Source: Chiloscyllium plagiosum (taxonomy: Eukaryota). Taken from it: 39,326 nt of DNA. Positions within the stretch are counted from its first letter, which is position 1. Each line of letters starts with the position of its first letter. The stretch covers positions 1,081,606-1,120,931 of the forward strand of contig NC_057718.1 of assembly GCF_004010195.1 (NCBI RefSeq), written 5' to 3'. Below are positions 2,215 through 38,599 of the stretch, one piece after another. The notes beneath the pieces were generated by a model that saw only the letters and a list, made by a program, of their open reading frames with translations, made no database searches and was not told the origin of the DNA. The translations under genes were made by a program, and so were the position numbers.

Positions 2215-2420
2215 GTTGAAACTTTATTGCTGGACCAGCACAGCAGGTCAGGCAGCATCCAGGGAACAGGAGATTCGACGTTTCGGGCACAGGCCCTTCT
2301 TCGGGCCTGTGCCCGAAACGTCGAATCTCCTGTTCCCTGGATGCTGCCTGACCTGCTGTGCTGGTCCAGCAATAAAGTTTCAACTTTGATCTCCAGCATC
2401 TGCAGACCTCACTTTCTCCT
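2215..2420. mobile_element. Short Penelope-derived insertion as an inverted dimer (perfect 82-bp palindrome plus 36-nt tail)
   Basis: Arms 2215-2296 and 2303-2384 are exact reverse complements around a TTCTTC spacer. Flanked by the direct repeat GATAAAGCA(G/A)TGG (2203-2215, 2421-2433). Homologous to the 3' end of the Penelope fragment at 2521-3098. Confidence 0.85.
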
Positions 2421-2520
2421 GATAAAGCAATGGGTCTTCTTCAACAGATGGCAGTGGTTTAATATCAGCTGATTGACTTGTTGGGCCACTTCAGGAATTA
2501 GTTAAGAGTTAGCCAGGTCA

Positions 2521-3098
2521 TTGTGGATCGTTTCAGAGATAACCTCTGGGACACCCCACCAATCAACCCACTGCCCTGTGGCCTAACACTTCAACTCCCC
2601 CTCCCCCTCCCCCTCCCCCAAGGACATGCAGGTCTTGGGCCTCGTCCATGGTCAAACCCTATCCACCCGATGCCTGGAGGAAGAACTCCTCATATTCTGC
2701 CTTGGGACCCTGCAACCACATGGGATTAATGCGGATTTCACCAGTTTCCACATTTTCCCCTCCCCCCCGCCTTATCCCAGTCCCAAGTCTCAAACTCGGC
2801 ACCAACCTCCTGACCTGTTCACCGCCTTTCCCATCTATCTGCTCCACCCTCCTAACCAACCTATCACCTTCTCCCCCACCGTCATCTGCCTAATGTATTC
2901 TCAGCTACCTTCCCCCCAGCCCCAACCCCCTTCCATTTATCTCTCCGTCCCCAGACCCACAAGCCTCACTCCTAATGAAGGGCTTATGCCCAAAACCTTG
3001 ATTCTCCTGCACCTCGGATGCTGCCTGAATGGTTGTGCTGTTCTAGCACCACACTCGCAACTCTGATCTGAAGCATCTGCAGTCCTCCCTTTCTCCTG
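2521..3098 (+). mobile_element. 5'-truncated Penelope-like retroelement (C-terminus of GIY-YIG endonuclease plus 3' end with decayed hammerhead motif)
   Basis: Frameshifted translation RFRDNLWDT...HFNSPS...DMQVLGLVHGQTLSTRCLEEELLIFCLGTLQPHGINADF fits the PLE GIY-YIG C-terminus (E..I..L.T..P.G.N). Decayed motif CTAATGAAGGGCTTATGCCCAAAACC at about 2972-2997. TSD GTTAG(C/T)CAGGTCA at 2508-2520 and 3099-3111. Confidence 0.85.
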
Positions 3099-3757: not shown

Positions 3758-4783
3758 AAATAGAACATAGAACAGTACAGCACAGAACAGGCCATTCAGC
3801 CCACGATGTTGTGCCGACCATTGATCCTCATGTATGCACCCTCAAATTTCTGTGACCATATGCATGTCCAGCAGTCTCTTAAAAGTCCCCAATAACCTTG
3901 CTTCCACAACTGCTGTTGGCAACGCATCCCATGCTCTCACAACTCTCTGTGTAAAGAACCCGCCTCTGACATCCCCTCTATACTTTCCTCCAACCAGCTT
4001 AAACTATGAGCCCTCGTGTTAGTCATTTGTGCCCTGGGAAATAGTCTCTGCCTATCGACTCTATGCCTCTCATTATCTTGTATACCTCAATTAGGTCCCC
4101 TCTCCTCCTCCTTTTCTCCAATGAAAAAAGTCCGAGCTCAGTCAACCTCTCTTCATAAGATAAGCCCTCCAGTCCAGGCAGCATCCTGGTAAACCTCCTC
4201 TGAACCCTCTCCAAAGCATCCACATCTTTCCTATAATAGGGCAACCANNNNNNNNNNNNNNNNNNNNNNNNNNNNNNNNNNNNNNNNNNNNNNNNNNNNN
4301 NNNNNNNNNNNNNNNNNNNNNNNNNNNNNNNNNNNNNNNNNNNNNNNNNNNNNNNNNNNNNNNNNNNNNNNNNNNNNNNNNNNNNNNNNNNNNNNNNNNN
4401 NNNNNNNNNNNNNNNNNNNNNNNNNNNNNNNNNNNNNNNNNNNNNNNNNNNNNNNNNNNNNNNNNNNNNNNCCACTCACTGTCTTCTGTTGGCCAGCCAA
4501 TTCTGTATCCAGACAGCTAAGTTTCCCGGTATCCCATTCCTCCTGACCTTCTGAATGAGCCTACCATGGGGAACCTTATCAAATGCCTTGCTGAAGTCCA
4601 TATACACCACATCCACAGCTCGACCCTCATCAAACTTTCTAGTCACATCCTCAAAGAACTCGATAAGGTTTGTGAGGCATGACCTGCCCCTCACAAAGCC
4701 GTGTTGACTGCATTTAATCAAGCCACGCTCTTCCAGATGGTCATAAATCCTATTCCTCAGAATCCTTTCTAACACCTTGCAGT
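3758..4783 (-). mobile_element. CR1 LINE 3' portion spanning an assembly gap
   Basis: RT motifs QHGFVRGRSCLTNL, VYMDFSKAFDKVPH, LERVQRRFTRMLPGL, RGDLIEVYK. (CATAGAA)n tail at about 3758-3775. Confidence 0.9.
4248..4471. other. Assembly gap (N run)
   Basis: 224 N. Confidence 1.
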
Positions 4784-8353: not shown

Positions 8354-8980
8354 NNNNNNNNNNNNNNNNNNNNNNNNNNNNNNNNNNNNNNNNNNNNNNN
8401 NNNNNNNNNNNNNNNNNNNNNNNNNNNNNNNNNNNNNNNNNNNNNNNNNNNNNNNNNNNNNNNNNNNNNNNNNNNNNNNNNNNNNNNNNNNNNNNNNNNN
8501 NNNNNNNNNNNNNNNNNNNNNNNNNNNNNNNNNNNNNNNNNNNNNNNNNNNNNNNNNNNNNNNNNNNNNNNNNNNNNNNNNNNNNNNNNNNNNNNNNNNN
8601 NNNNNNNNNNNNNNNNNNNNNNNNNNNNNNNNNNNNNNNNNNNNNNNNNNNNNNNNNNNNNNNNNNNNNNNNNNNNNNNNNNNNNNNNNNNNNNNNNNNN
8701 NNNNNNNNNNNNNNNNNNNNNNNNNNNNNNNNNNNNNNNNNNNNNNNNNNNNNNNNNNNNNNNNNNNNNNNNNNNNNNNNNNNNNNNNNNNNNNNNNNNN
8801 NNNNNNNNNNNNNNNNNNNNNNNNNNNNNNNNNNNNNNNNNNNNNNNNNNNNNNNNNNNNNNNNNNNNNNNNNNNNNNNNNNNNNNNNNNNNNNNNNNNN
8901 NNNNNNNNNNNNNNNNNNNNNNNNNNNNNNNNNNNNNNNNNNNNNNNNNNNNNNNNNNNNNNNNNNNNNNNNNNNNNNNN
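8354..8980. other. Assembly gap (N run)
   Basis: 627 N. Confidence 1.
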
Positions 8981-13599: not shown

Positions 13600-13750
13600 G
13601 AAGCACCACCCAGCCCCACCCCCCCTCCCATTTATTTCTCAGCCCCCGGCCCACAAGCCTCATTCCTGGTAAAGGGTTTATGCCTGAAACGTTGATTCCC
13701 CTGCTCCTTTGATGCTGCCTGACCAGCTGTGCTTTTCCAGCACCACACTG
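13600..13750 (+). mobile_element. Penelope 3'-end fragment with decayed hammerhead motif
   Basis: Homologous to 2915-3060. Motif CTGGTAAAGGGTTTATGCCTGAAACGTTGA. Confidence 0.75.
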
Positions 13751-17541: not shown

Positions 17542-17685
17542 AAATAAAAACCAAAAGAACTACAGATGCTATAAATCAGAAACAAAAACTGAGGTTGCTG
17601 GAAAAGCTCAGCAAGTCTGGCAGCATCTGTGAAGAGAAATCAAAGTTAATGTTTCAGATCTGGTGACCCTTCCTCAGAATTCTTT
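17542..17685 (-). mobile_element. Second family of hammerhead-motif short repeat
   Basis: Minus strand CTGAGGA-A-GGGTC-ACCA-GATCT-GAAACATTA...GATGCTGCCAGACTTGCTGAGCTTTTCCAGC. Related copies at about 5812-5950 (+) and 37555-37685 (-). Confidence 0.7.
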
Positions 17686-20890: not shown

Positions 20891-20963
20891 AGGTATGTAT
20901 GGCCCATCCTTTAAAAATCCATCTAGGTACATAGGAACAGAAGTAGGCCATTCAGCCCCTTGA

Positions 20964-21052
20964 TTTTCCTGCTCCTCGGATGCTGCCCAACCTGCTGTGC
21001 TTTTCCAGCACCACTCTCATCTTGACTCTAATCTCCAGCAGTACCCACTTCT
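20964..21052 (+). mobile_element. Short Penelope-derived insertion lacking the hammerhead core
   Basis: TTTTCCTGCTCCTCGGATGCTGCC... flanked by the perfect 17-bp direct repeat GCCATTCAGCCCCTTGA (20947-20963, 21053-21069). Confidence 0.8.
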
Positions 21053-24295: not shown

Positions 24296-24586
24296 CTATA
24301 CAAAAAGCAGACTGGAGGGAGTAAGTGGGGGACAAGGCTGTTGGCAGTTTGTGTTTTCACAAATTACTCCACATCAGCAATGGCTCACACACAAACACTT
24401 TCTGTTTGTGGACTGTAGCTATTGGTGATGGTTCTGATATTCCCATTTACTATGTCTCCAAACCCACTGAATTGTTCTCAACTTTCCCACTCCCACAAAA
24501 GCAAACTACTGCTACTGCTGGAGGTCCAACATAAGAGCAAAACAAATGCTGAAGAAATTCAGTGAGTCTGGCACCATCCTTGGGTA

Positions 24587-24727
24587 CTCATTCCTCACTC
24601 CTGAAGAAGGGCTTATGCCCGAAACGTCGATTCTCCTGCTCCTTGGATGCTGCCTGACCTGCTGTGCTTTTCCAGCAACACATTTTCAGCTCTGATCTCC
24701 AGCATCTGCAGACCTCACTTTCTCCTC
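24587..24727 (+). mobile_element. Short Penelope-derived insertion with intact hammerhead core
   Basis: CTGAAGA-A-GGGC-TTAT-GCCC-GAAACGTC at 24601-24628. TSD CACCAT(C/T)CTTGG(G/A)TA at 24572-24586 and 24728-24742. Confidence 0.85.
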
Positions 24728-25424
24728 CACCATTCTTGGATAAACAGCTAATGTCTCAGACTATGACCCCCCTGGTGTGGACACCCTGGTCATTGAGAAC
24801 ATCCTTCCTATGTTTCCTCTGCCTAGTCCTGTTAAAATTTAAAGGTTTCTATGAGGTCCACAACTTATTCTTCTAATCTCCTTTGAATATCGGCCTTATC
24901 GATCCAGTACCTTTTCACATGTCAATCCTGCCATCTCAAGAATCTGTCTGGTAAACTCCCCCGCCCCCCTCATCCTTCCTCAGGTAAGGAGACCAAAACA
25001 GCACACAGTATTCCAGATTTGTACTTCCCAATTTCCCAATGTTCAGATAATAATCTGCCTGCTGGTTTTTGCTACCTAAGTGGATAACCTCACATTTATC
25101 CACATTATACTACATTTGCTCACTCACTCAATTTGACCAAATTACATTGAAAAGCTTCTCTGCATTCTCCTCCTGGGCTCACATTCCCACCCAGCTCTGT
25201 GTCACATTACACAAGATATTACATTACATTGCATTAATATATTCGTTCCCTCATCTAAATCATATCGCTGCCTGCCATTCAGAAAAAGACCCACTATTCC
25301 TTCTCTCTGTTTTCTGCCTGCCAGCCAGATTTCTATCCATGGCAGCACACTACCCCCCATTCCCTTATGTAAATCCATGCTGACTCCGACAATCCAATCA
25401 CTGATTTCCAAGTGCTCTTAACTA

Positions 25425-25755
25425 GATCAGATCACAGAATCCCCACAGTGTGGAAACAGGCCCTTCGGCACAACAAGTCCACACCGACCGTCTGAAGAGT
25501 AACCCACCCAGACCCATTTCCTCTACCCGATATTTACCCCTGACTAATGTACCTAATCTACACATCCCTGAACACTATGGACAATTTAGCATGGCAAATT
25601 CACCTAACCTACACATCTTTAGACTATGGGAGGAAACCCACGCAGACACGGGGAGAATGTGCAAACTCCACACAGTCGCCTGAGGCTGGAATCGAACCTG
25701 GGTCCTTGGTGCTGTGAGGCAGCAGTGCTAACCACTGAGCCACTGTGCCATCCCC
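25425..25755 (-). mobile_element. tRNA-derived V-SINE (HE1-like)
   Basis: A box TGGCTCAGTGG, B box GGTTCGATTCC and V-domain. Homologous to 16867-17176. Confidence 0.88.
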
Positions 25756-26564
25756 AAACTCTTATACATGAACTCTAGCATTTTCCCTACTACAGATGTC
25801 AGGCTGACCAATCTATAATTCCCTGTTTCTCTCCAGAAGGGGATTGGCTACTCTCTAATCCAAAGAGTCATCATGTTAAATGCCAACTTGGATTCTCTGT
25901 TCACTGACGCTGGTGAGGATTTCCAGTCTTTTCTGGTTTGACTTCAGATTTCTGCCAGGTTTAATTGTTCAGACTGACAGTCCATGCTGCCCCAAAAGTC
26001 AGTAAAGGAGCTTCACTCAACAATATCACATACAGAACGTAGGACATTACAGCGCAATACAGGCCCCTTCGGCCTTGGATGTAGCATTGATTTGTGAAAT
26101 TAATCTGATGCCCATCTAACCTACACCATTCCGTTATTATCCATATGTATGTCCAATGACCATTTAAATGCCCTCAATGTCAGCGAGTCTACTACTGTTA
26201 CAGGCAGATCGTTTCACACCCCTGCTACTCTCAGAGTAAAGAAATTACCCCTGATATCTGTCCTAAATCTATTACCCTTCAATTTAAAGCTATGTCCCCT
26301 CATGTTAGCCTTCACCATCTGATGAAAAAGGCTCTCACTGTCCACCCAATCTAACCCTCTGATTATCTTATACACCTTGATTACGTCATCTCTCAACCTT
26401 CTTCACTCCGGCGAAAACAGCCTCAGTTCCCTCAGCCTTTCCTCGTAAGACCTTCCCTCCATACCAGGCAACATCCTCGTAAATCTCCTCTGAACCCTTT
26501 CCAAAGGTTCCTTTAAAGCAATGACCAGAACTGTACGCAATACTCCAGGTGCGGCCTTACCAGT

Positions 26565-26695
26565 TTCCTGAAGAAGGGCTTGTGCCCGAAACATCAATTC
26601 TTCTGCTCCTTTGATGCTGCCTGACCTGCTGCACTTTTCCAGCAACACATTTTTCAGCTCTGATGCCCAGCATCTGCAGTCCTCACTGTCTCCTA
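26565..26695 (+). mobile_element. Short Penelope-derived insertion with hammerhead motif
   Basis: CTGAAGA-A-GGGC-TTGT-GCCC-GAAACATC from 26568. TSD GCGGCCT(T/A)ACCAGT at 26551-26564 and 26696-26709. Confidence 0.85.
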
Positions 26696-26855
26696 GCGGC
26701 CTAACCAGTGTCTTGTACAGCTGAAGCATGACCTTGTGGCTCCGAAACTCAATCCTTCCACCAATAAACACTAACACACCATATGTCTTCTTAACAACCC
26801 TATCAACATTGGTGACAACATTCCAGGATTTATACACCCAGACACCAAGATCTCT

Positions 26856-26948
26856 TTCCTGATGAAGGGCTTTTGCCCGAAACGTCAATTTTGCTGCTCG
26901 TCGGATGCTGCCTGAATTGCTGTGCTCTTCCAGCACCACTGATCCAGA
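26856..26948 (+). mobile_element. Short Penelope-derived insertion with canonical hammerhead core
   Basis: Perfect 12-bp TSD ACCAAGATCTCT at 26844-26855 and 26949-26960. The element starts TTCCTGATGA. Confidence 0.88.
26859..26886 (+). ncRNA. Minimal type I hammerhead ribozyme motif (Penelope-type)
   Basis: CUGAUGA-A-GGGC-UUUU-GCCC-GAAA-CG-UC contains the catalytic boxes, a 4-bp stem II and a palindromic ACGU stem III. Stem I is very weak and activity is untested. Confidence 0.65.
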
Positions 26949-29249
26949 ACCAAGATCTCTCTGTTCATCGACACTGCCAATAATTTTACCATTAGCCCAG
27001 TACTCTACATTCCTGTTACTTCTACCTCACACTTTTCCACATCAAACTCTATTTGACACTTCTCAGCCCAGCTCTGCATCTTATCTATGTCCCTCTGTAA
27101 CCCACAACATCCTTCAGTACGATCCACAACTCTGCCTATCTTAGTGTCTTCCGCAAATTTACTAACACATCCTTCTATGTCCACATCCAGATCACTGATA
27201 AAAATCACAAACAGCAGTGGCCCCACTGAACTCAGGATGAACATTTCCCATCAATGACCACACTCTGTCTTCTCCCAGCCGCCAATTTCTGATCCAAATC
27301 ACTAAATCCCTTTCAATCCCGAAAGGGATTTTGTGCAATAGCCTACCGTGGGGGACCTTATCAAAAGCCTTACTGAAATCCATACACACCACATCAACTA
27401 CTTTACCCTCATCCATCTGTTTCATCACCTTCTCAAAGAACTCAATAAGGTTAGTTAGGCATGACCTACCCTTCACAAAACTGTGTTGACTATCCCTAAT
27501 CAAATTATTCCTTTTCAGACGATTATAAATCCTCTCTTATAACCTTTTCTAACACCTTACCCACAACCAAAGTAAGGCTCACTGGTCTATAATTACCAGG
27601 TTTGTCCCGACTTCCCTTCTTAAACAAGGGAACAGCATTTGCTATCCTCCAGTCTTCTGGCACTAATCCTGTTGACCATTATGACATAAAGATCAAAGCC
27701 AAAGGCTCAGCAATCTCTTCCCTGGCTTCCCAGAGAATCGGAGGATAAATCCCATCCAGCCCAGGGGTCTTATCTATTTTCAGATCTTCCAAAATTGCTA
27801 AAACTTCCTCTCTGTCAGCCACAATCCCATCTAATCTTGTAGCTTGTCTCTCCATATTCTCACTAACATTGCCCTTTTCCAATGTGAATACTGACAAAAA
27901 ATATTCATTAAGTGCTTCCCCATGTCCTCAGATTCCATACACAACTTCCCAGTACAATCTTTGATTGGCCCTAGTCTTACTCTAGTCATTCTTTTATTCC
28001 TGATATATCTACAGAAGGCCTTAGGGTTTTCCTTGATCCTATCTGCCAACAACGTCTCATGTCCCCTCCTGGCTCTTAGCACTCTCTTTAGATCTTTTCT
28101 GGCTGACCTATAACTCTCAAGCCCCCTAACTGAGCCCTCACGTTTCATTCTCACATAAGCCTTCTTCTTCCTCTTGAGAAGAATTCAACTTCCTTAGTAA
28201 ACCATGGCTCCCTGTCTCGGCAACTACCTCCCTGCCTGATAGGTATATACTGGAGGTATATAGGTATGCAGTAGCTGTTCCTTGAATAAGCTCCACATTT
28301 CAAGTGTGTCCATCCTCTGCAGTTTCCTTCCCCATCCTAAATCTTGCCTAATTGCATCATAATTGCCTTTTCCCCAGTTATACCTCTTTCCCTGCGGTAT
28401 ATACCTATCCCTGCCCATTGCTATTGTAAACATAACCAAATTGTGGTCACTATCGCCAAGTTACTCACCTGCCTCCAAATCTAACACCTGGCCGGGTTCA
28501 TTCCCCAGCACCAAATCCAATGTGGCCTCGCCCCTTGTTGGCCTGTCTACATACTGTGTCAGGAAACCCTCCTGCACACATTGATCAAAAACTGACCCAC
28601 CTAAACTACTTGAACTCTAGTATTCTCAGTCAATATTGGGGAAGTTAAAGTCCCCCATAACAACTACCCTGTTACTCTCGCTCCTATTTAGAATCGTCTT
28701 TGCTAACCTTTCCACTACATCCCTGGAACAATTCGGAGCTGATAGAAAACTCCCAACAGGGTGACCTCTCCTTTCCTGTTTCTAACCTCAGCCCAAACTA
28801 TCTCAGTGGATGAGTCCTCAAATGTTGTCACAACTGCTGTCATACTACCCTTGATTCAGAATGCCACATCCCCAGCCTCTTTTACTATCATCTCTGTTCT
28901 TCCTGAAACATCTAAATCCCGGAATCTGCAGCAACCATTCCTGTCCCTCCTCTAGCCATGACTCTGAAATGGCCACAACATCGAAATCCCAGGTACCAAT
29001 CCAGGCTGCAAGTTCATCCACCTTATTCCGGATGCTCCTGGTGTTGAAGTACACACCAACATCCTGATTGCCGGTGCCCTCTCGCGACCTTGTAAACCCC
29101 TATCCCTGATCTCGCTACCCTCAACCGCCTGTACACTGGAGCTACAATTCAGGTTCCCATCCCCCTGCTGCATAGTTTATCTGGCACTTTAGCACTGTAG
29201 CATGGAGCAAGGCATTACCCTTTTATAACATCATCTGCATGTTGTCCCA

Positions 29250-30530
29250 CTACAACAGTGGCATCTACCCGAAAGTGTGGAAAAAGACTAAGGTATTTCT
29301 TGTCTACAAAAAACACGACAAATTCAACCCAGCTATTTACCAACCCATTAGTCTACTCTCAATAATCAATAAAGTGTGAAGGAAGGTGTCAGTAACAGAG
29401 CTACCAAGCAGCACCTGCTCAGCAATAACCTGCTCAGTGACACCCAGTTTGGGTTCCCCCAGGGTCACTCAGCTCCTGACCTCATTACAGCCTTGGGTCA
29501 AACATGGACAAAAGAGCTGAATTCCAGAGGCGAGGGGAGAGGGACAGCCCTTGACATCAAGGCTGCATTCGCCCGAGTGTGGCATTAAGGAGCACGAGTA
29601 AGACTGGAATCAGTGGGAATCGGGGGCAAACTCTTCACTGGTTGGAGTCATACCAGTCACATAGAGTCATAGAGATGTACAGCATGGAAACAGACCCTTC
29701 GGTCCCACCCGTCCATGCCGACCAGATATCCCAACCCAATCTAGTCCCACCTGCCAGCACCCGCCCCATATCCCTCCAAACCCTTCCTATTCATATACCC
29801 ATCCAAATGCCTGCAGCCGTGGTTGTTGGAGGGTCACTCATCTCAGCTCCAGGACATCTCTGCAGGAGTTCCTCAGGCCCAACCATCTACAGCTGCCTCA
29901 TCAATGACCTTCCCTCCACCTTAAAGATTGAAATGGGGATGTTCGTTGATGACTGCACAGTGTTCAGCTCCATTTACAACTCCACAGATACTGAAGCAGT
30001 CAGTGTTCAAGTGCAACACAACCTGGATAATATCCAGGCTTGGGCTCATAAAAGGCTAGTACTATTCATGCCACACAAATGCCAGGCAATGACTTTCTCC
30101 AATAAGTCATGATCTAACCTCCTGGTCATTCAATGGCATTACCATCACTGAATCACTATACCTGAGGGTTATCACTGACCAGAAACTGAACTGGACTATC
30201 CATTAATACAGTGGTAACAAGAATAGGTCAGAGGAAAACTTCCTGACTGCCCTATGCCTATCCACCATCTACAAAACACAAGTCTGGAGTACGATGGAAT
30301 AATCTGTCTCCTCTGTGATGGAATAATCCCCACTTGTCTGAATGGGTCCAGCTCTGACAAGACTCAAGAACAACACCATCCAGAATAAAGCAGCTTTCTT
30401 AATTGACACCGTATCCTGATGAAGGGCTTATGCTCAAAACGTCGATTCTCCAGCTCTTCAGATGCTGCTTGACCACCTGTGCTTTTCCAGCACCACTCTC
30501 TTTGACCATATCTACCACCATCAACAATGT
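29250..30530 (+). mobile_element. Decayed L2-type LINE RT with a nested CR1 tail (29659-29810, minus) and a Penelope-derived insert (30416-30504)
   Basis: LLSDTQFGFPQGHSAPDLITAL, ALDIKAAFARVWH, GPTIYSCLINDLPS, MFVDDCT. Confidence 0.85.
30416..30504 (+). mobile_element. Short Penelope-derived insertion with partly decayed hammerhead motif
   Basis: CTGATGA-A-GGGC-TTAT-GCTC-AAAACGTC. Probable TSD ACC(G/A)TATC at 30408-30415 and 30505-30512. Confidence 0.75.
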
Positions 30531-34885: not shown

Positions 34886-35058
34886 CGTGAAGGTGAGGAC
34901 TGCAGACGCTGGAGATTAAAGTTGAGAGCATCCTGCTGGAAAAGCACAGCAGGTCAGGCAGCATCTGAGGAGCAGGAGAGTTGATGTTTCAGGCAAAAAC
35001 CTGATGAAGGACTTTTGTCCAAAACGTCGACTCTCCTGCTCCTCGGATACTGCCTCGT
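34886..35058. mobile_element. Penelope-derived short insertion as an imperfect inverted dimer
   Basis: Minus-strand copy at about 34889-34999 is joined to a plus-strand copy starting CTGATGA-A-GGAC-TTTT-GTCC-AAAACGTC (35001). Degenerate TSD TTATAAGATTCTATA / TTACAAGCTTCTACA. Confidence 0.75.
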
Positions 35059-36384
35059 TTACAAGCTTCTACAGACTGTGGAACATATCCAACAGATTGG
35101 ACCGTAGCTAATGTAATCCCTCTATTTAAAAAGGGAGGCAGAGAGAAAACTGGGCATTATAGACCAGTCAGCCTGATGTCAGTAGTAGGAAAAATGCCAG
35201 AATACATTACAAAATAATAGCTAAGCATTTGGAAAACAGTGCAGGATTGGACACTGTCAGGATGGATTTGCAAAATCTATTGGAATATTTCAAGGCTATA
35301 TCTAGTAGAACTGTTCAGAGAGAGCCAGTGGATGTAGTTTATTTGGACTTTTAAAAGGCATTTGAAAAGGTCCATGTAAGAGATTAGGGCAAAATTGAAG
35401 TGTATGGGACTGGGGCCAGTGTTTTGAGATGGATGGCAGACAAGAAATAAAGAGTGTGAATAAATGGGTCTTTTCCCAAATGGCAGACAGTGGGGTACCA
35501 TAGGGATTGGTACTAGAAACCTACCTGTTCACAATATATATTATTAATTTAATATCCCTAAATTTACAGGGAGGATGAGGAGGATGCAGAAATGCTGCAG
35601 CATGACTTGATCAGGCTGAGTGAGTGAGCAAATGCATGGCAGGCGCAGTACGATGTGGATAAATGTGATGCTATCCTCTTTGGTAGCAAAAGCAGAAAGG
35701 CAGGTTATTGACTGAATGGCTGTAAGTTGAGAGAAGGGAATGTGTAACAAGGTCTAAGCATGCAGCAGGCAGGACAGGCAGCACATGGTATGGTGCCCTT
35801 TGAGTACATGAGCAGGAGTGTCTTGTTGCAATTATACAGGGACTTGGTGAGGCCACACCTGGAATATGGTGTGCAGTTTTAGTCTCCTTATCTGAGGAAG
35901 GATGTTCTTACTATTCAGGCAGTGCAGTGAAGGTTTCGAGACTGATTCCTCAGATGACAGGACTGATGTATGAGGACAGACGGAGTTGGGGGAATCACAG
36001 TCTAAGGATACAGGTTAAACCTTTTAGTCTGAGCTGAGGAGAAATGTCCTCATTCAGAGAGTAGTGAGCCTTCAAGACATATCTGGACAAACTCATGAAT
36101 AGGAAGGGATCTTCTAAGTGAAGGCAGGTTTACAATGGAAGGATAAAATGTGCTGGCACAGGCTTGGAGGGCCAAATGACCTTTGCTGGATTGACCTTTG
36201 TTCTCTGTGGAATTCTCTGCCACAGAAAATGGTTGAGGCCAAAACATAGTGTGACTGCAAGAAGGAGTTGGATATAGCACTTGGGGCTAAAGGAATCAAA
36301 CGACAAAGGCAGGAACAGCAGAATGGCCTACTGCTGCTGTATTTTCTATGTTTCCATGAAACTCTCCAGTCCCCCCAGATTCAC

Positions 36385-37383: not shown

Positions 37384-38599
37384 ATGTATGTGTAGGTGAT
37401 TGTAGGTACCTGAATGAGCATATGCATGCGTATATGGCAATGTGTGTATATTGTGATGCAGACTTTGTGATTTGTATATATTTTAATATTCTATCTTGTA
37501 AATTTGAGCTGTTGATTTCTAAATTAGATACCACCTTCCAAACCTTTACTAAATAGAAACCAAAGAAGTATAGAAATCAGAAACAAAAACAGAAATTGCT
37601 GGAAAATTTCAAAAGCTCTGGCAGCATCTGGGGAAAGAAAGCAGAATTAACGTTTCGGGTCGAGTGACCTTTCTTTTGAACTTCCTGTTTTTGTTTCCTT
37701 CCAAACCTATGACCATGACCATCCAGAAGGACAAGGGCAGGAGATACTTGGGAACACAAGCATTTGCAAGTTCCCCTTCAAGCCACTCACCATGCTGACT
37801 TGGAAACATATTGTTGTTCTTTCAGTGTGTTACAGGGTGTAACGGCATCTCCCGCATGGACAGCAGAGGTTCAAGAAAGCAGCCACCAAGGGGCAACTAG
37901 AGATGGACAATAAATACTACAGGAACCAGTGATACCCACGTCCATGTTGTGGGTGATGCAAAAAGCACGTTTTTAACGCACAGTCTGAAATTAAATAAAC
38001 TTGTCAGTATTTCTGTAGTCAGGGCAATTTCTTCAAAAACAGTTTTTTTAAACCCAGCTTTAGACTCATTGTGCTTTAGTGCACTTTCTGTTTACCTTAG
38101 ACTGCTCTGAGCCATCCTGGCATAAAGAGTTAATATCAGACAGAAGAGAGAAGACCAGAAGTGTTGGAATAAAACCTTGCAGAGATTGCTTGAAACTGAG
38201 TGAATATATGATCAGGTGTCTAATAGCTCTAGGAAGCAGCTTTCTGCAGTTCCCGTTTATACGCTGAAATCAGAAGTTATGTAAATCTAATGAGGTGTTA
38301 GAGTTGGGGAATCTGATGTGGGCATGTACAAGTGGTATTTTGGGGAACTATAGAAGGTGTCCTATACTAAAGTCGTTGTTTTGTGTTTCAATTTAAAAGG
38401 AGCGCTTTGTGATGAATGGGATTATACTTTTACGTGGGTTTTAAAATCTGAATTTGTGTTATAACAAAATGGTTTAGTTTATTTCATCTTCATTGCTTCA
38501 TTCATAAACTTCTGTTTTATTTTTAAAACAAAACCTGCAGCATTTTATGCTCGTTTCAACAAGAGGCCATTAGTAAAAACCAAAACAAATCAAAATTCT

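What the first reader, a model, noticed from the sequence alone, without database searches (positions are those of the whole stretch)
24587..26948. Family of tiny TSD-flanked mobile inserts carrying a minimal hammerhead ribozyme (non-autonomous Penelope/retrozyme-like system)
Seen: about 10 copies of a 90-200 bp repeat (2215, 2965, 11553, 13660, 20964, 24587, 26565, 26856, 30416, 34886). Most have their own 8-17 bp TSD. Three keep CTGANGA-A-GGGC-N4-GCCC-GAAAC(G/A)TC (24601, 26568, 26859). Established: CUGANGA/GAAA/UH is the hammerhead core, Penelope-like elements carry minimal type I hammerheads with palindromic stem III that are thought to act as dimers, and an extra A after A9 occurs in some natural hammerheads. 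Inference: this is an abundant shark short element built around the ribozyme and mobilised by a Penelope RT/GIY-YIG. At roughly one copy per 4 kb here, it may be a major and poorly annotated genome component.
Basis: partly seen in the sequence, partly recalled or inferred. Interest (0 to 1): 0.8.

Follow-up and report, generated by a model that had tools for sequence, protein, structure and literature searches.

The report
Penelope retroelement tails carrying minimal hammerheads
The short repeats are the tail ends of Penelope-like jumping genes, each carrying the small hammerhead self-cutting RNA motif already known from such elements: real and very abundant in this shark-type genome, but a known kind of thing.

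Summary
All 10 listed copies are real, and there are two more arms and two copies of a second family. The motif CTGANGA-A-GGGC-N4-GCCC-GAAAC(G/A)TC sits at 24601, 26568 and 26859. TSDs of 11-16 bp flank 6 of 12 insertion events, and a seventh is weak.

The repeats are the last ~95-280 nt of a Penelope-like element (PLE). Long copies run upstream into an ORF ending in a CX4CX2C linker and a GIY-YIG motif. RT fragments lie further upstream. Shark homologues carry RVT_1 plus GIY-YIG. The ribozyme is the minimal PLE hammerhead of Cervera and de la Pena 2014 (PMC4209133), extra base included. PLE hallmarks are all present: two alternative 3' ends about 35-40 nt apart (the "tail"), fold-back pairs and partial tandems.

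The family is huge: 87,506 exact motif copies. Most short copies start 1-4 nt before the ribozyme core, in both families, so a discrete short unit is plausible but unproven. Retrozyme-like tandems are rare (138). No read or insertion evidence shows cleavage.

This scan had already reached the same verdict eight times on other DNA of this genome. It is a new member of a known kind.

The parts
24587..24727 (+). Copy H. PLE 3' tail fragment covering ref 141/145-280 of a natural 282-nt 3' UTR, with the tail. It has an intact min-HHR and 10 parental nucleotides upstream of the core.
   Evidence: 96% identical to the L024 3' UTR
24601..24628 (+). Intact minimal hammerhead: CUGAAGA-A-GGGC-UUAU-GCCC-GAAA-CG-UC. 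The predicted cut is after C24628.
   Evidence: features match PMC4209133
24572..24586 (.). TSD of copy H (caccatccttgggta); its partner is 24728-24742 (caccattcttggata).
   Evidence: read directly
26565..26695 (+). Copy I. HHR-first short copy with the tail. HHR at 26568-26595, with 16.2 G>A. TSDs at 26551-64 and 26696-709.
26856..26949 (+). Copy J. HHR-first short copy without the tail. Intact min-HHR at 26859-26886. TSDs at 26845-55 and 26950-60.
2217..2305 (-). Arm A of a fold-back pair. Tail-less; core has U4>C.
2303..2421 (+). Arm B of the fold-back pair. It starts inside helix II and carries a 39-nt tail that arm A lacks. One TSD (2204-16 / 2422-35) encloses both arms.
2569..3098 (+). 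Copy C. Older, longer PLE fragment: GIY-YIG domain remnant at 2569-2748, then the 3' UTR at 2860-3098 with a decayed HHR.
   Evidence: tblastn with P0001-P0003, 60-70% identity
11552..11634 (-). Copy D. Decayed short copy with a ~16-nt TSD and 9 extra nucleotides at its 5' junction.
13606..13749 (+). Copy E. Tail-less copy that reaches about 50 nt upstream of the HHR; core decayed.
17545..17679 (-). Copy F, second family: CUGAGGA-A-GGGUC-ACCA-GAUCU-GAAAC-AUU. It starts at TTCTGAGG.
20962..21052 (+). Copy G. It lacks the whole HHR core and begins at the first nucleotide after the predicted cleavage site. Perfect 15-nt TSD (20947-61 / 21053-67).
30414..30500 (+). Copy K. HHR-first, tail-less; G12>A; weak TSD.
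34889..35001 (-). Arm L of a second fold-back pair.
35000..35055 (+). Arm M. Helix II is GGAC/GUCC (both sides changed); G12>A; cut short at its 3' side.
37596..37685 (-). Copy N, second family, decayed. Helix II is GGUC/GACC.

Best explanation
The repeats are insertion relics of Neptune-like, endonuclease-bearing Penelope-like elements (PLEs).

Shown: each copy is the 3'-terminal part of the PLE RNA. That part is its 3' UTR, which doubles as the pseudo-LTR. The copies share one of two fixed 3' ends about 35-40 nt apart, which is the PLE 'tail' signature. They carry 11-16 bp TSDs. Some extend upstream into the GIY-YIG/RT ORF.

Inferred by analogy with PAc (PMC11167929): the two 3' ends reflect two internal start sites of target-primed reverse transcription.

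Shown: about 40% of copies in the sample, and about 87% of one large subfamily, end 1-4 nt upstream of the ribozyme core. Fold-back pairs have their axis at the same spot.

Inferred: the template RNA had a discrete 5' end there, most simply a pLTR transcription start as in Drosophila Penelope.

Shown: on the sense strand, 98 nt from the 3' end, sits the PLE-type minimal hammerhead. It has CUGANGA, one unpaired A, a 4-5 bp helix II, GAAA, the palindromic C15.2-G16.2, and UH.

Inferred from the literature: it would cut after GUC or GUU only as a dimer, and weakly.

Inferred from the copies: since the inserted copies keep the whole motif, their templates were mostly uncleaved.
For: Shared ends. 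Thirty near-identical genomic copies (96-100%) share the end ...CTGCAGNCCTCACTTTCTCC. Of these, 16 of 30 continue upstream into common sequence and 14 of 30 do not.

ORF continuity. Walking upstream reaches an ORF whose stop lies 282 nt before the 3' end. Its C-terminus reads ...GTFPCNRKKCKTCAH...IIYCIRCTRCGLLYIGETGR..ERF.E.. Pfam GIY-YIG scores E 0.012, 16.4 bits, below the 22.6-bit cut-off. RT-part fragments on the same strand, upstream of EN and the 3' UTR, are seen in L034, L038 and L053 (tblastn, 58-80% to P0001).

Homologues. P0001-P0003 (bamboo shark and whale shark by their source names) are 62-75% identical. P0008 reaches the Pfam cut-offs for both RVT_1 (32.9 bits) and GIY-YIG (24.3 bits).

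3' ends. Of 64 untargeted copies, 29 end at ref 229-247, 23 at ref 276-281 and 12 elsewhere. In the window's fold-back pair one arm has a 39-nt tail that the other lacks.

5' ends. 26 of 64 lie at ref 150-156. 17 of 31 motif-bearing untargeted copies keep 5 or fewer parental nucleotides before CUGA. Genome-wide, only 5,433 of 40,644 CTGATGAAGGGCTTTTGCCC copies have the parental CATTC in front. In the second family, 24 of 39 scored copies start at the same query base, 2 nt before CUGA. Read and k-mer depth step up about 5-fold (raw reads) to 20-40-fold (contigs) at ref 150-153.

Fold-backs. There are 6,615 head-to-head junctions with 10 nt or fewer between the two CUGA boxes; the control gives 0.

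Ribozyme. 87,506 exact motif matches for family 1 and 1,212 for family 2, controls 0. Between the two families 11 of 11 fixed core nucleotides are the same (mean column identity 0.95), against 7 of 18 downstream columns (0.72). Helix II is 97.7% paired, with pair UA:12/CG:6. The closing pair of helix I is UA:11/CG:5. Overall 86.6% of cells pair, against 12-48% when the partner is slid.

Literature. Every feature matches PMC4209133 (parts 1-2 of 4 and keyword passages read), PMC8557442 (passages) and PMC11167929 (passages).
Against: - No full-length element could be read. Long ORF stretches are withheld (N) in the loci, so the RT core, the ORF start and a 5' pLTR were not seen on one copy.
- Pfam GIY-YIG on this genome's own copy is below the cut-off. 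A Pfam scan of the RT fragments failed on a stop codon.
- Rfam finds no hammerhead at the gathering threshold or at E up to 10.
- Helix I is only 2-4 bp, and helix III does not exist in a monomer. The cofold MFE dimer pairs GAAACGUCGAUUC with itself rather than forming the active fold.
- Covariation rests on only two families, so on at most one event per pair.
- A sharp 5' end is not what random 5' truncation gives, so 'dead-on-arrival truncation' alone does not explain the main class.
- Self-cleavage is untested. Only 2 of 64 sampled copies, plus window copy G, start at the cleavage site.
Confidence: 0.85

Rival explanations
1. The HHR-first unit of about 95-130 nt is a discrete, self-perpetuating non-autonomous element (SINE-like, or a retrozyme monomer). 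It would be derived from the PLE pLTR, transcribed on its own, and copied in trans by the PLE RT/EN.
For: - The 5' end is discrete, 1-4 nt before the core, in two diverged families.
- The unit keeps the whole min-HHR, including the 2-4 bp of helix I.
- Depth of the unit is 5-40 times that of the upstream UTR.
- Fold-back axes lie at that same end.
- Preprint 10.64898/2026.07.22.740005 (abstract and Results part 1 read) derives animal non-LTR retrozymes from PLE pLTRs and reports monomer offspring.
Against: - Short and ORF-linked copies share the same variants, for example CTGTTCCCTGG...GCAGACC.
- 13% of the TTTT subfamily do keep upstream parental bases.
- Unit-length tandems are rare: 138 against 87,506. 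In the 10 loci inspected, most are adjacent copies of different age or partial tandems.
- No circular or unit-length RNA was seen. 93% of laid RNA reads run on into unlike flanks, on both strands. That library is poly(A) single-cell and is ill suited to this question.
Confidence: 0.3
2. The motif is not a working ribozyme. It would be a conserved hairpin plus sequence kept for another reason, such as a promoter, RT binding or a template-end signal, that merely retains hammerhead-like boxes.
For: - No Rfam hammerhead hit.
- A very short helix I and no helix III.
- The literature reports low in vitro activity of metazoan min-HHRs (PMC4209133).
- HHR mutants do not change insertion in vitro, and no reads end at the cut site (PMC11167929, passages).
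- Naiad PLEs thrive without an HHR (PMC8557442, passages).
- Inserted copies here keep the motif uncut.
- The block GATGCTGCC...TTTTCCAGCA downstream is conserved as strongly.
Against: - 11 of 11 catalytic-core nucleotides are identical between two families that differ in 11 of 18 downstream columns.
- Both-sided changes keep helix II and the closing pair of helix I.
- N7, loop II and H17 vary exactly where hammerhead rules allow.
- The PAc HHR does cleave, and C3G or G8C abolish cleavage (PMC11167929).
Confidence: 0.15
3. The repeats are SINEs or MITE-like fold-backs moved by a LINE (CR1/L2) or by a DNA transposase, with a chance hammerhead look-alike.
For: - The fold-back pairs score as miRNA-like hairpins.
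- CR1-like LINE fragments lie nearby.
Against: - The 3' end is continuous with a GIY-YIG ORF, not a LINE.
- A single TSD encloses whole fold-backs whose arms are unequal and whose tail sits on one side only.
- The reversed-pattern control gives 0 against 87,506 matches.
Confidence: 0.02

Closest known systems
Minimal hammerheads (min-HHR) in the pseudo-LTRs of metazoan Penelope-like elements (Cervera and de la Pena 2014, PMC4209133)
   Same: CUGANGA and GAAA boxes. One unpaired nucleotide between A9 and 10.1. G10.1-C11.1. Palindromic 15.2-16.2 with no helix III. A short helix I. Most copies are single motifs from truncated PLEs, with pairs on opposite strands. Families within one genome have covarying stems.
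   Different: Host is a shark-type genome (no shark is named in the parts read). Helix II is 4-5 bp rather than the 7-8 bp of Schistosoma. There are 87,506 exact copies of one 24-base motif, against about 4,000 (coelacanth) and about 9,000 (Xenopus) by their descriptor. The counts are not strictly comparable.
Neptune-clade EN+ PLEs of fishes (as summarised in Craig et al. 2021, PMC8557442)
   Same: A C-terminal GIY-YIG preceded by a CX2-5CxxC linker. High 5' truncation. Partial tandems (pLTR). An adjacent inverted 5'-truncated copy. A 30-40 bp tail on one side. HHR in the pLTR.
   Different: Clade placement here rests on the linker motif alone; no tree was made. The full ORF could not be read.
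PAc (Poseidon of Anolis carolinensis), internal initiation of reverse transcription (PMC11167929)
   Same: Two adjacent 3' ends that define the tail. The HHR lies about 100 nt upstream of them. Unprocessed RNA appears to be the template.
   Different: In PAc the HHR overlaps the ORF start. Here it lies in the 3' UTR, 155 nt after the stop codon, and the relation to the ORF start is unknown.
Animal non-LTR retrozymes (Cervera and de la Pena 2020, PMC7229834, listing only; Li et al. 2026 preprint, abstract and Results part 1)
   Same: A type I hammerhead in a short non-coding unit related to PLE pLTRs, with many dispersed monomers.
   Different: The defining tandem arrays are rare here. No circRNA evidence was obtained.

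Membership tests
Penelope-like element (EN+, canonical order) | Single ORF with an RT followed by a C-terminal GIY-YIG endonuclease | tested here: met
   A YIGETGR..ERF.E. motif lies at the ORF end of L046, L049 and other loci. RT-part fragments lie upstream on the same strand in L034, L038 and L053. Homologues reach the Pfam cut-offs for RVT_1 and GIY-YIG. Caveats: this genome's own copy scores below the GIY-YIG cut-off, and the RT core is withheld as N.
Penelope-like element (EN+, canonical order) | Pseudo-LTRs, partial tandems and an adjacent inverted 5'-truncated copy | tested here: met
   Fold-backs at 2217-2421 and 34889-35055. 6,615 head-to-head junctions genome-wide. Partial tandems in L077 and L081.
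Penelope-like element (EN+, canonical order) | Optional 30-40 bp tail at one end | tested here: met
   3' ends are bimodal: 29 of 64 at ref 229-247 and 23 of 64 at ref 276-281. A 39-nt tail sits on one arm only of the 2217-2421 pair.
Neptune/Nematis clades | CX2-5CxxC motif in the RT-EN linker | tested here: met
   GTFPCNRKKCKTCAH in L046. The criterion is taken from PMC8557442 passages. No phylogeny was made.
PLE min-HHR (PMC4209133) | CUGANGA ... GAAA core, an unpaired nucleotide after A9, G10.1-C11.1, palindromic 15.2-16.2, and U16.1-H17 | tested here: met
   In family 2 most copies have G10.1-U11.1 instead.
PLE min-HHR (PMC4209133) | Helix I of 4-5 bp | tested here: inconclusive
   2 bp, a mismatch, then 1 bp in copy H. 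4 bp in the GAAUC/CAUUC variant (strings). 3 bp in family 2 if the preceding G is part of the RNA.
PLE min-HHR (PMC4209133) | Self-cleavage after H17 (as a dimer) | not testable with these tools
   There are only indirect hints. Copy G and 2 of 64 sampled copies start at the cut site. No pile-up of read ends was seen.
Rfam hammerhead families (type I and others) | A match to the covariance model | tested here: not met
   No hammerhead hit at gathering or at E up to 10 in the whole window. This is expected for motifs without helix III.
Non-LTR retrozymes | Head-to-tail tandem repeats of the HHR unit | tested here: not met
   138 motif pairs at 85-115 nt spacing against 87,506 motifs. Of 10 loci inspected, most are adjacent copies of different age or partial tandems, and one (L084) holds a short-unit array.
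Non-LTR retrozymes | Circular RNA of unit length | not testable with these tools
   The only raw RNA reads were from a poly(A) single-cell library.

The most novel reading that the evidence does not exclude
The HHR-first unit of about 95-130 nt is an RNA in its own right. It would begin 1-4 nt before the ribozyme core at a pLTR start site; the family 1 parent reads TCAYTCC there, which fits an initiator-like motif from recall. It would be copied from end to end by the PLE enzyme, and when the enzyme reaches that 5' end it would often snap back to make the fold-backs. This solo-pLTR or SINE-like parasite would account for most of roughly 10^5-10^6 copies, which may be the largest hammerhead-bearing family in a vertebrate genome. 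Because the ribozyme occupies the first ~32 nt of the RNA, cleavage would remove the capped leader. It could then act as a switch between messenger and template or decay fates.
Probability: 0.3. Interest if true: 0.55.

Novelty: new member of a known kind. Interest (0 to 1): 0.3.

Why it matters
It adds a cartilaginous-fish case to the rule that canonical PLEs carry minimal hammerheads, and a very large one. There are 87,506 perfect motif copies, and about one fragment per 3-4 kb in the DNA sampled.

The large numbers make this genome a natural data set for open questions about PLE transposition. Those questions include where the template RNA begins, why fold-backs form, where reverse transcription starts (tail or no tail), and whether the ribozyme ever cuts in vivo.

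For annotation, these fragments should be labelled as PLE tails, not as a new repeat class or as miRNA-like hairpins.

Tried and rejected
- Rfam at gathering and at E up to 10: no hammerhead. The best hits were miRNA models on the fold-backs.
- ARAGORN: no tRNA in the window.
- Upstream walk to a full-length element. Unmasked neighbours were truncated copies next to CR1-like LINE pieces. Long copies are withheld as N, and the N runs also cover LINE sequence, so ORF length could not be inferred.
- Pfam on RT fragments: the call failed on a stop codon and was not repeated.
- Retrozyme-like tandems: rare, and mostly adjacent copies of different age.
- Cap-derived extra G at the 5' end. G is enriched before ATTCCTGAAG: by my hand count of the first 100 rows, G 57, A 27, T 16. 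Fold-backs of the form CAGGAATG|ATTCCTG also give G, so nothing can be concluded.
- Test for a short-only lineage. The TTTT subfamily is not purely short: 5,433 of 40,644 keep CATTC.
- RNA. No RNA holder was listed for the stretch. The one run that gave laid raw reads (X20; run X21 laid none) shows the element inside other transcripts on both strands, and no place where many molecules begin or end.
- Cofold of two 46-nt RNAs does not return the hammerhead dimer.
Ten short stretches were fetched instead.
Full report
**1. What is in the sequence**

The motif CTGANGA-A-GGGC-N4-GCCC-GAAAC(G/A)TC is at 24601, 26568 and 26859. Decayed versions lie at 2280(-), 30416 and 35001. The search gave 8 hits at up to 1 mismatch against 0.83 expected, and 0 of 100 shuffles reached 8.

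blastn of 24561-24760 against the window finds 13 further hits. They also reveal second, inverted arms at 2303-2421 and 35000-35055, and two copies of a diverged family at 17556-17679(-) and 37596-37685(-).

Read directly, 6 of 12 insertion events have clear TSDs of 11-16 bp and one more has a weak one. The fold-back at 2217-2421 is enclosed by a single TSD, so it is one insertion.

Only 24601 and 26859 keep the whole motif. The copy at 26568 has lost G16.2 to CpG decay. Rfam reports no hammerhead at the gathering threshold or at E up to 10.

**2. What the copies are**

The window lies in a 3.56-Gb genome. A search with 24587-24727 gave 732 candidates, of which 40 were scored, at 96-100% identity.

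Aligned on their flanks, the 30 fetched copies share one 3' end but differ at the 5' side. 16 of 30 continue upstream into common sequence and 14 of 30 do not.

A second search with the upstream part (874 candidates, 40 scored) led into an open frame. It reads ...DPTTRDIFPSPPLS...GTFPCNRKKCKTCAH...IIYCIRCTRCGLLYIGETGR..ERF.E....QPQGMNSDF...APPS*. Its stop lies 282 nt before the element's 3' end.

Pfam sees GIY-YIG only weakly in this copy: E 0.012, 16.4 bits against a cut-off of 22.6. The closest database proteins are uncharacterised proteins that their sources name from bamboo shark and whale shark. They are 62-75% identical. They and a 43%-identical relative carry RVT_1 followed by GIY-YIG, and the relative P0008 scores above both cut-offs.

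tblastn with these proteins finds RT-part fragments in L034, L038 and L053. These lie on the same strand, upstream of the EN part and the 3' UTR. It also finds an EN remnant at window 2569-2748, just upstream of the copy at 2860-3098.

RT followed by a C-terminal GIY-YIG is the Penelope-like architecture. The CX4CX2C linker is the mark of the Neptune and Nematis clades as given in PMC8557442 (passages read).

The long ORF stretches of the fetched loci are withheld as N. No complete element was seen, and the N runs also cover neighbouring LINE sequence.

**3. Anatomy of the copies**

I used one natural 3' UTR as a ruler (L024, 282 nt). On it the ribozyme's C3 is at 155 and the predicted cut is after 182.

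In 228,810 non-N bases of loci plus window there are 64 copies that were not the target of a search. That is about one per 3.6 kb. The sample lies next to PLE copies and may be enriched.

3' ends. 29 of 64 end at ref 229-247, 23 of 64 at 276-281 and 12 elsewhere. In the window's fold-back, arm B carries 39 nt that arm A lacks. This is the optional 30-40 bp tail of PLEs (PMC8557442). In the anole element PAc it corresponds to two internal start sites of reverse transcription (PMC11167929, passages read).

5' ends. These are not spread evenly.
- 26 of 64 lie at ref 150-156.
- Among 31 untargeted copies with an intact box, 17 keep 5 or fewer parental nucleotides before CUGA, 3 keep 8-22, and 11 keep at least 29.
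- Genome-wide, 40,644 copies match CTGATGAAGGGCTTTTGCCC, but only 5,433 (13%) have the parental CATTC in front.
- For the CTGAAGA type, 48,338 copies have CATTCC and 17,743 have a non-C before ATTCC.
- In the second family, 24 of 39 scored copies begin at the same base, TTCTGAGG, 2 nt before CUGA.
- Read and k-mer depth over a long copy rises about 5-fold (raw RNA reads) to 20-40-fold (contigs) at ref 150-153.

Fold-backs. Their axis lies in the same few nucleotides. There are 6,615 junctions genome-wide with 10 nt or fewer between two opposed CUGA boxes, and the control gives 0.

Tandems. Head-to-tail pairs at unit spacing are rare: 138. In the 10 loci inspected, most are adjacent copies of different age or the partial tandems usual for PLEs.

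**4. The ribozyme**

The motif has every feature listed for metazoan PLE min-HHRs in PMC4209133 (parts 1-2 of 4 of the text and keyword passages read):
- both core boxes;
- one unpaired nucleotide between A9 and 10.1;
- G10.1-C11.1;
- the palindromic C15.2-G16.2 with no helix III, so that ACGU of two molecules must pair;
- a short helix I.

It is on the sense strand of the ORF.

The genome holds 87,506 exact matches to CTGANGAAGGGC-N4-GCCCGAAACGTC, with 0 for the reversed control. It holds 1,212 matches to the second family's CTGANGAAGGGTC-N4-GACCTGAAACRTT.

I aligned 19 natural copies of the two families.
- The 11 fixed core nucleotides have the same commonest base in both families in 11 of 11 columns, with mean identity 0.95.
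- For the 18 columns downstream the figures are 7 of 18 and 0.72.
- Helix II is paired in 97.7% of cells, with one pair UA:12/CG:6.
- The closing pair of helix I is UA:11/CG:5.
- Overall 86.6% of cells pair, against 12-48% with the partner slid by 1-3 columns.

Two limits apply. Only two lineages are compared. A downstream block, GATGCTGCC.GAC.TGCTG.GCTTTTCCAGCA, is conserved as well.

Nothing here shows cleavage.
- Inserted copies keep the motif.
- Only copy G in the window (20962, perfect 15-nt TSD) and 2 of 64 sampled copies begin at the nucleotide after the cut site.
- The one run that gave laid raw RNA reads, a poly(A) single-cell library, shows no pile-up of ends. 93% of its 2,129 laid reads run on into unlike flanks on both strands. 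The element is therefore mostly a passenger in other transcripts.
- Folding two 46-nt RNAs together does not return the active dimer.

**5. Mechanism, with its steps marked**

Shown:
- the copies are the 3' ends of a PLE;
- they have two fixed alternative 3' ends;
- they have TSDs;
- many have a sharp 5' end next to the ribozyme;
- fold-backs are centred on that end.

Inferred from PAc and Penelope: target-primed reverse transcription starts at one of two internal sites of the RNA and runs to the RNA's 5' end. That end would be a transcription start inside the pLTR, as in Drosophila Penelope (PMC8557442 passages). At the end, the cDNA either joins the target, with microhomology seen in L007, L016 and L021, or snaps back.

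Open question: whether the short RNA comes only from ORF-bearing masters, or also from earlier short copies. I put that at about 0.3.

Discarded: an excess of G just before the first base (57 of the first 100 rows, by my hand count) cannot be read as a cap footprint, because fold-backs also produce it.

**6. Comparison, novelty and verdict**

The kind is known. Min-HHRs in PLE pLTRs, mostly as single motifs from truncated copies, were described in 2014. A PLE expansion in a shark genome is reported in bioRxiv 10.1101/443036 (passages read), and PMC8455134 lists Penelope among whale-shark repeats (passages read). A 2026 preprint links animal retrozymes to PLE pLTRs and sampled one chondrichthyan (abstract and Results part 1 read).

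Two literature searches found no paper whose listed title or abstract start describes hammerheads in shark PLEs. Dfam and Repbase could not be consulted.

This scan had already reached the same verdict in eight earlier notes on other DNA of this genome. I read those notes after forming my own view, and they agree with it.

New here:
- the genome-wide counts;
- the two-family comparison;
- the measured pile-up of 5' ends and fold-back axes at the ribozyme's first helix;
- the bimodal 3' ends.

Verdict: observation confirmed, interpretation partly supported, a new member of a known kind, interest 0.3.

Noticed in passing
window 24646-24714 (copy H); alignment A2 columns 54-62 with 112-120 and 70-74 with 83-87: The body sequence (C/G)(A/G)GATGCTG is the exact complement of CAGCATCTG in the tail, giving 9 bp. 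This helix encloses a 5-bp hairpin, TGCTG...CAGCA. Both are almost invariant in two families that differ elsewhere, so there is no covariation. The two alternative 3' ends fall just after the inner hairpin and just after the outer helix. This may be the structure that the RT recognises.
   Followed up: partly
G000:C2:20694027, C7:77962992, C15:63676068, C7:77281088, C22:4984550; locus L084: Short-period tandem arrays (units of about 27-46 nt) made only of the hammerhead core plus a few bases past the cut site, for example CATTCCTGAAGAAGGGCCTGTGCCCGAAACGTCGAATCT repeated. In this variant helix I is 4 bp (AUUC/GAAU). Their origin is unknown; repeated template switching at the RNA 5' end is one possibility.
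   Followed up: no
window 20962-21052: This copy lacks the ribozyme core and starts at the first base after the predicted GUC/GUU cut, with a perfect 15-nt TSD. It is the kind of insertion expected from a cleaved template, but such copies are rare (2 of 64 in the sample).
   Followed up: partly
window 25430-25760 (-): A tRNA-derived SINE-like repeat. Its reverse complement begins GGGGATGGCACAGTGGCTCAGTGGTTAGC...GGTTCGATTCC, which has box A-like and box B-like motifs by my recall of the consensus. ARAGORN calls no tRNA.
   Followed up: no
window 35056-35200 (+); loci L061, L062, L069, L070: CR1/L2-like LINE reverse-transcriptase fragments (for example ...LVRPHLEYCVQFWSP...) abut PLE copies. The family label is from recall and was not tested.
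   Followed up: no
loci L074, L075, L083: Younger PLE tails often sit directly beside or inside older ones of a different subfamily. This suggests that the endonuclease prefers its own sequence as a target, as reported for Penelope EN in PMC11167929 passages.
   Followed up: no
L013:1086 (+): One further descriptor hit with a different helix II (GGAG/CUCU, GAAAGCUU). It may be a third hammerhead family or chance.
   Followed up: no
window 4248-4471 and 8354-8980: Two runs of N (851 bases in all) in the window. Their content is unknown.
   Followed up: no
window 24614-24616 and many copies: Loop II variants TTAT, TCAT and TAAT followed by G create an ATG inside helix II. This recalls PAc, whose ORF starts at stem II. 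Here the frame closes after 26 codons, and the ATG is absent from the TTTT, CTGT and TTGT variants.
   Followed up: partly
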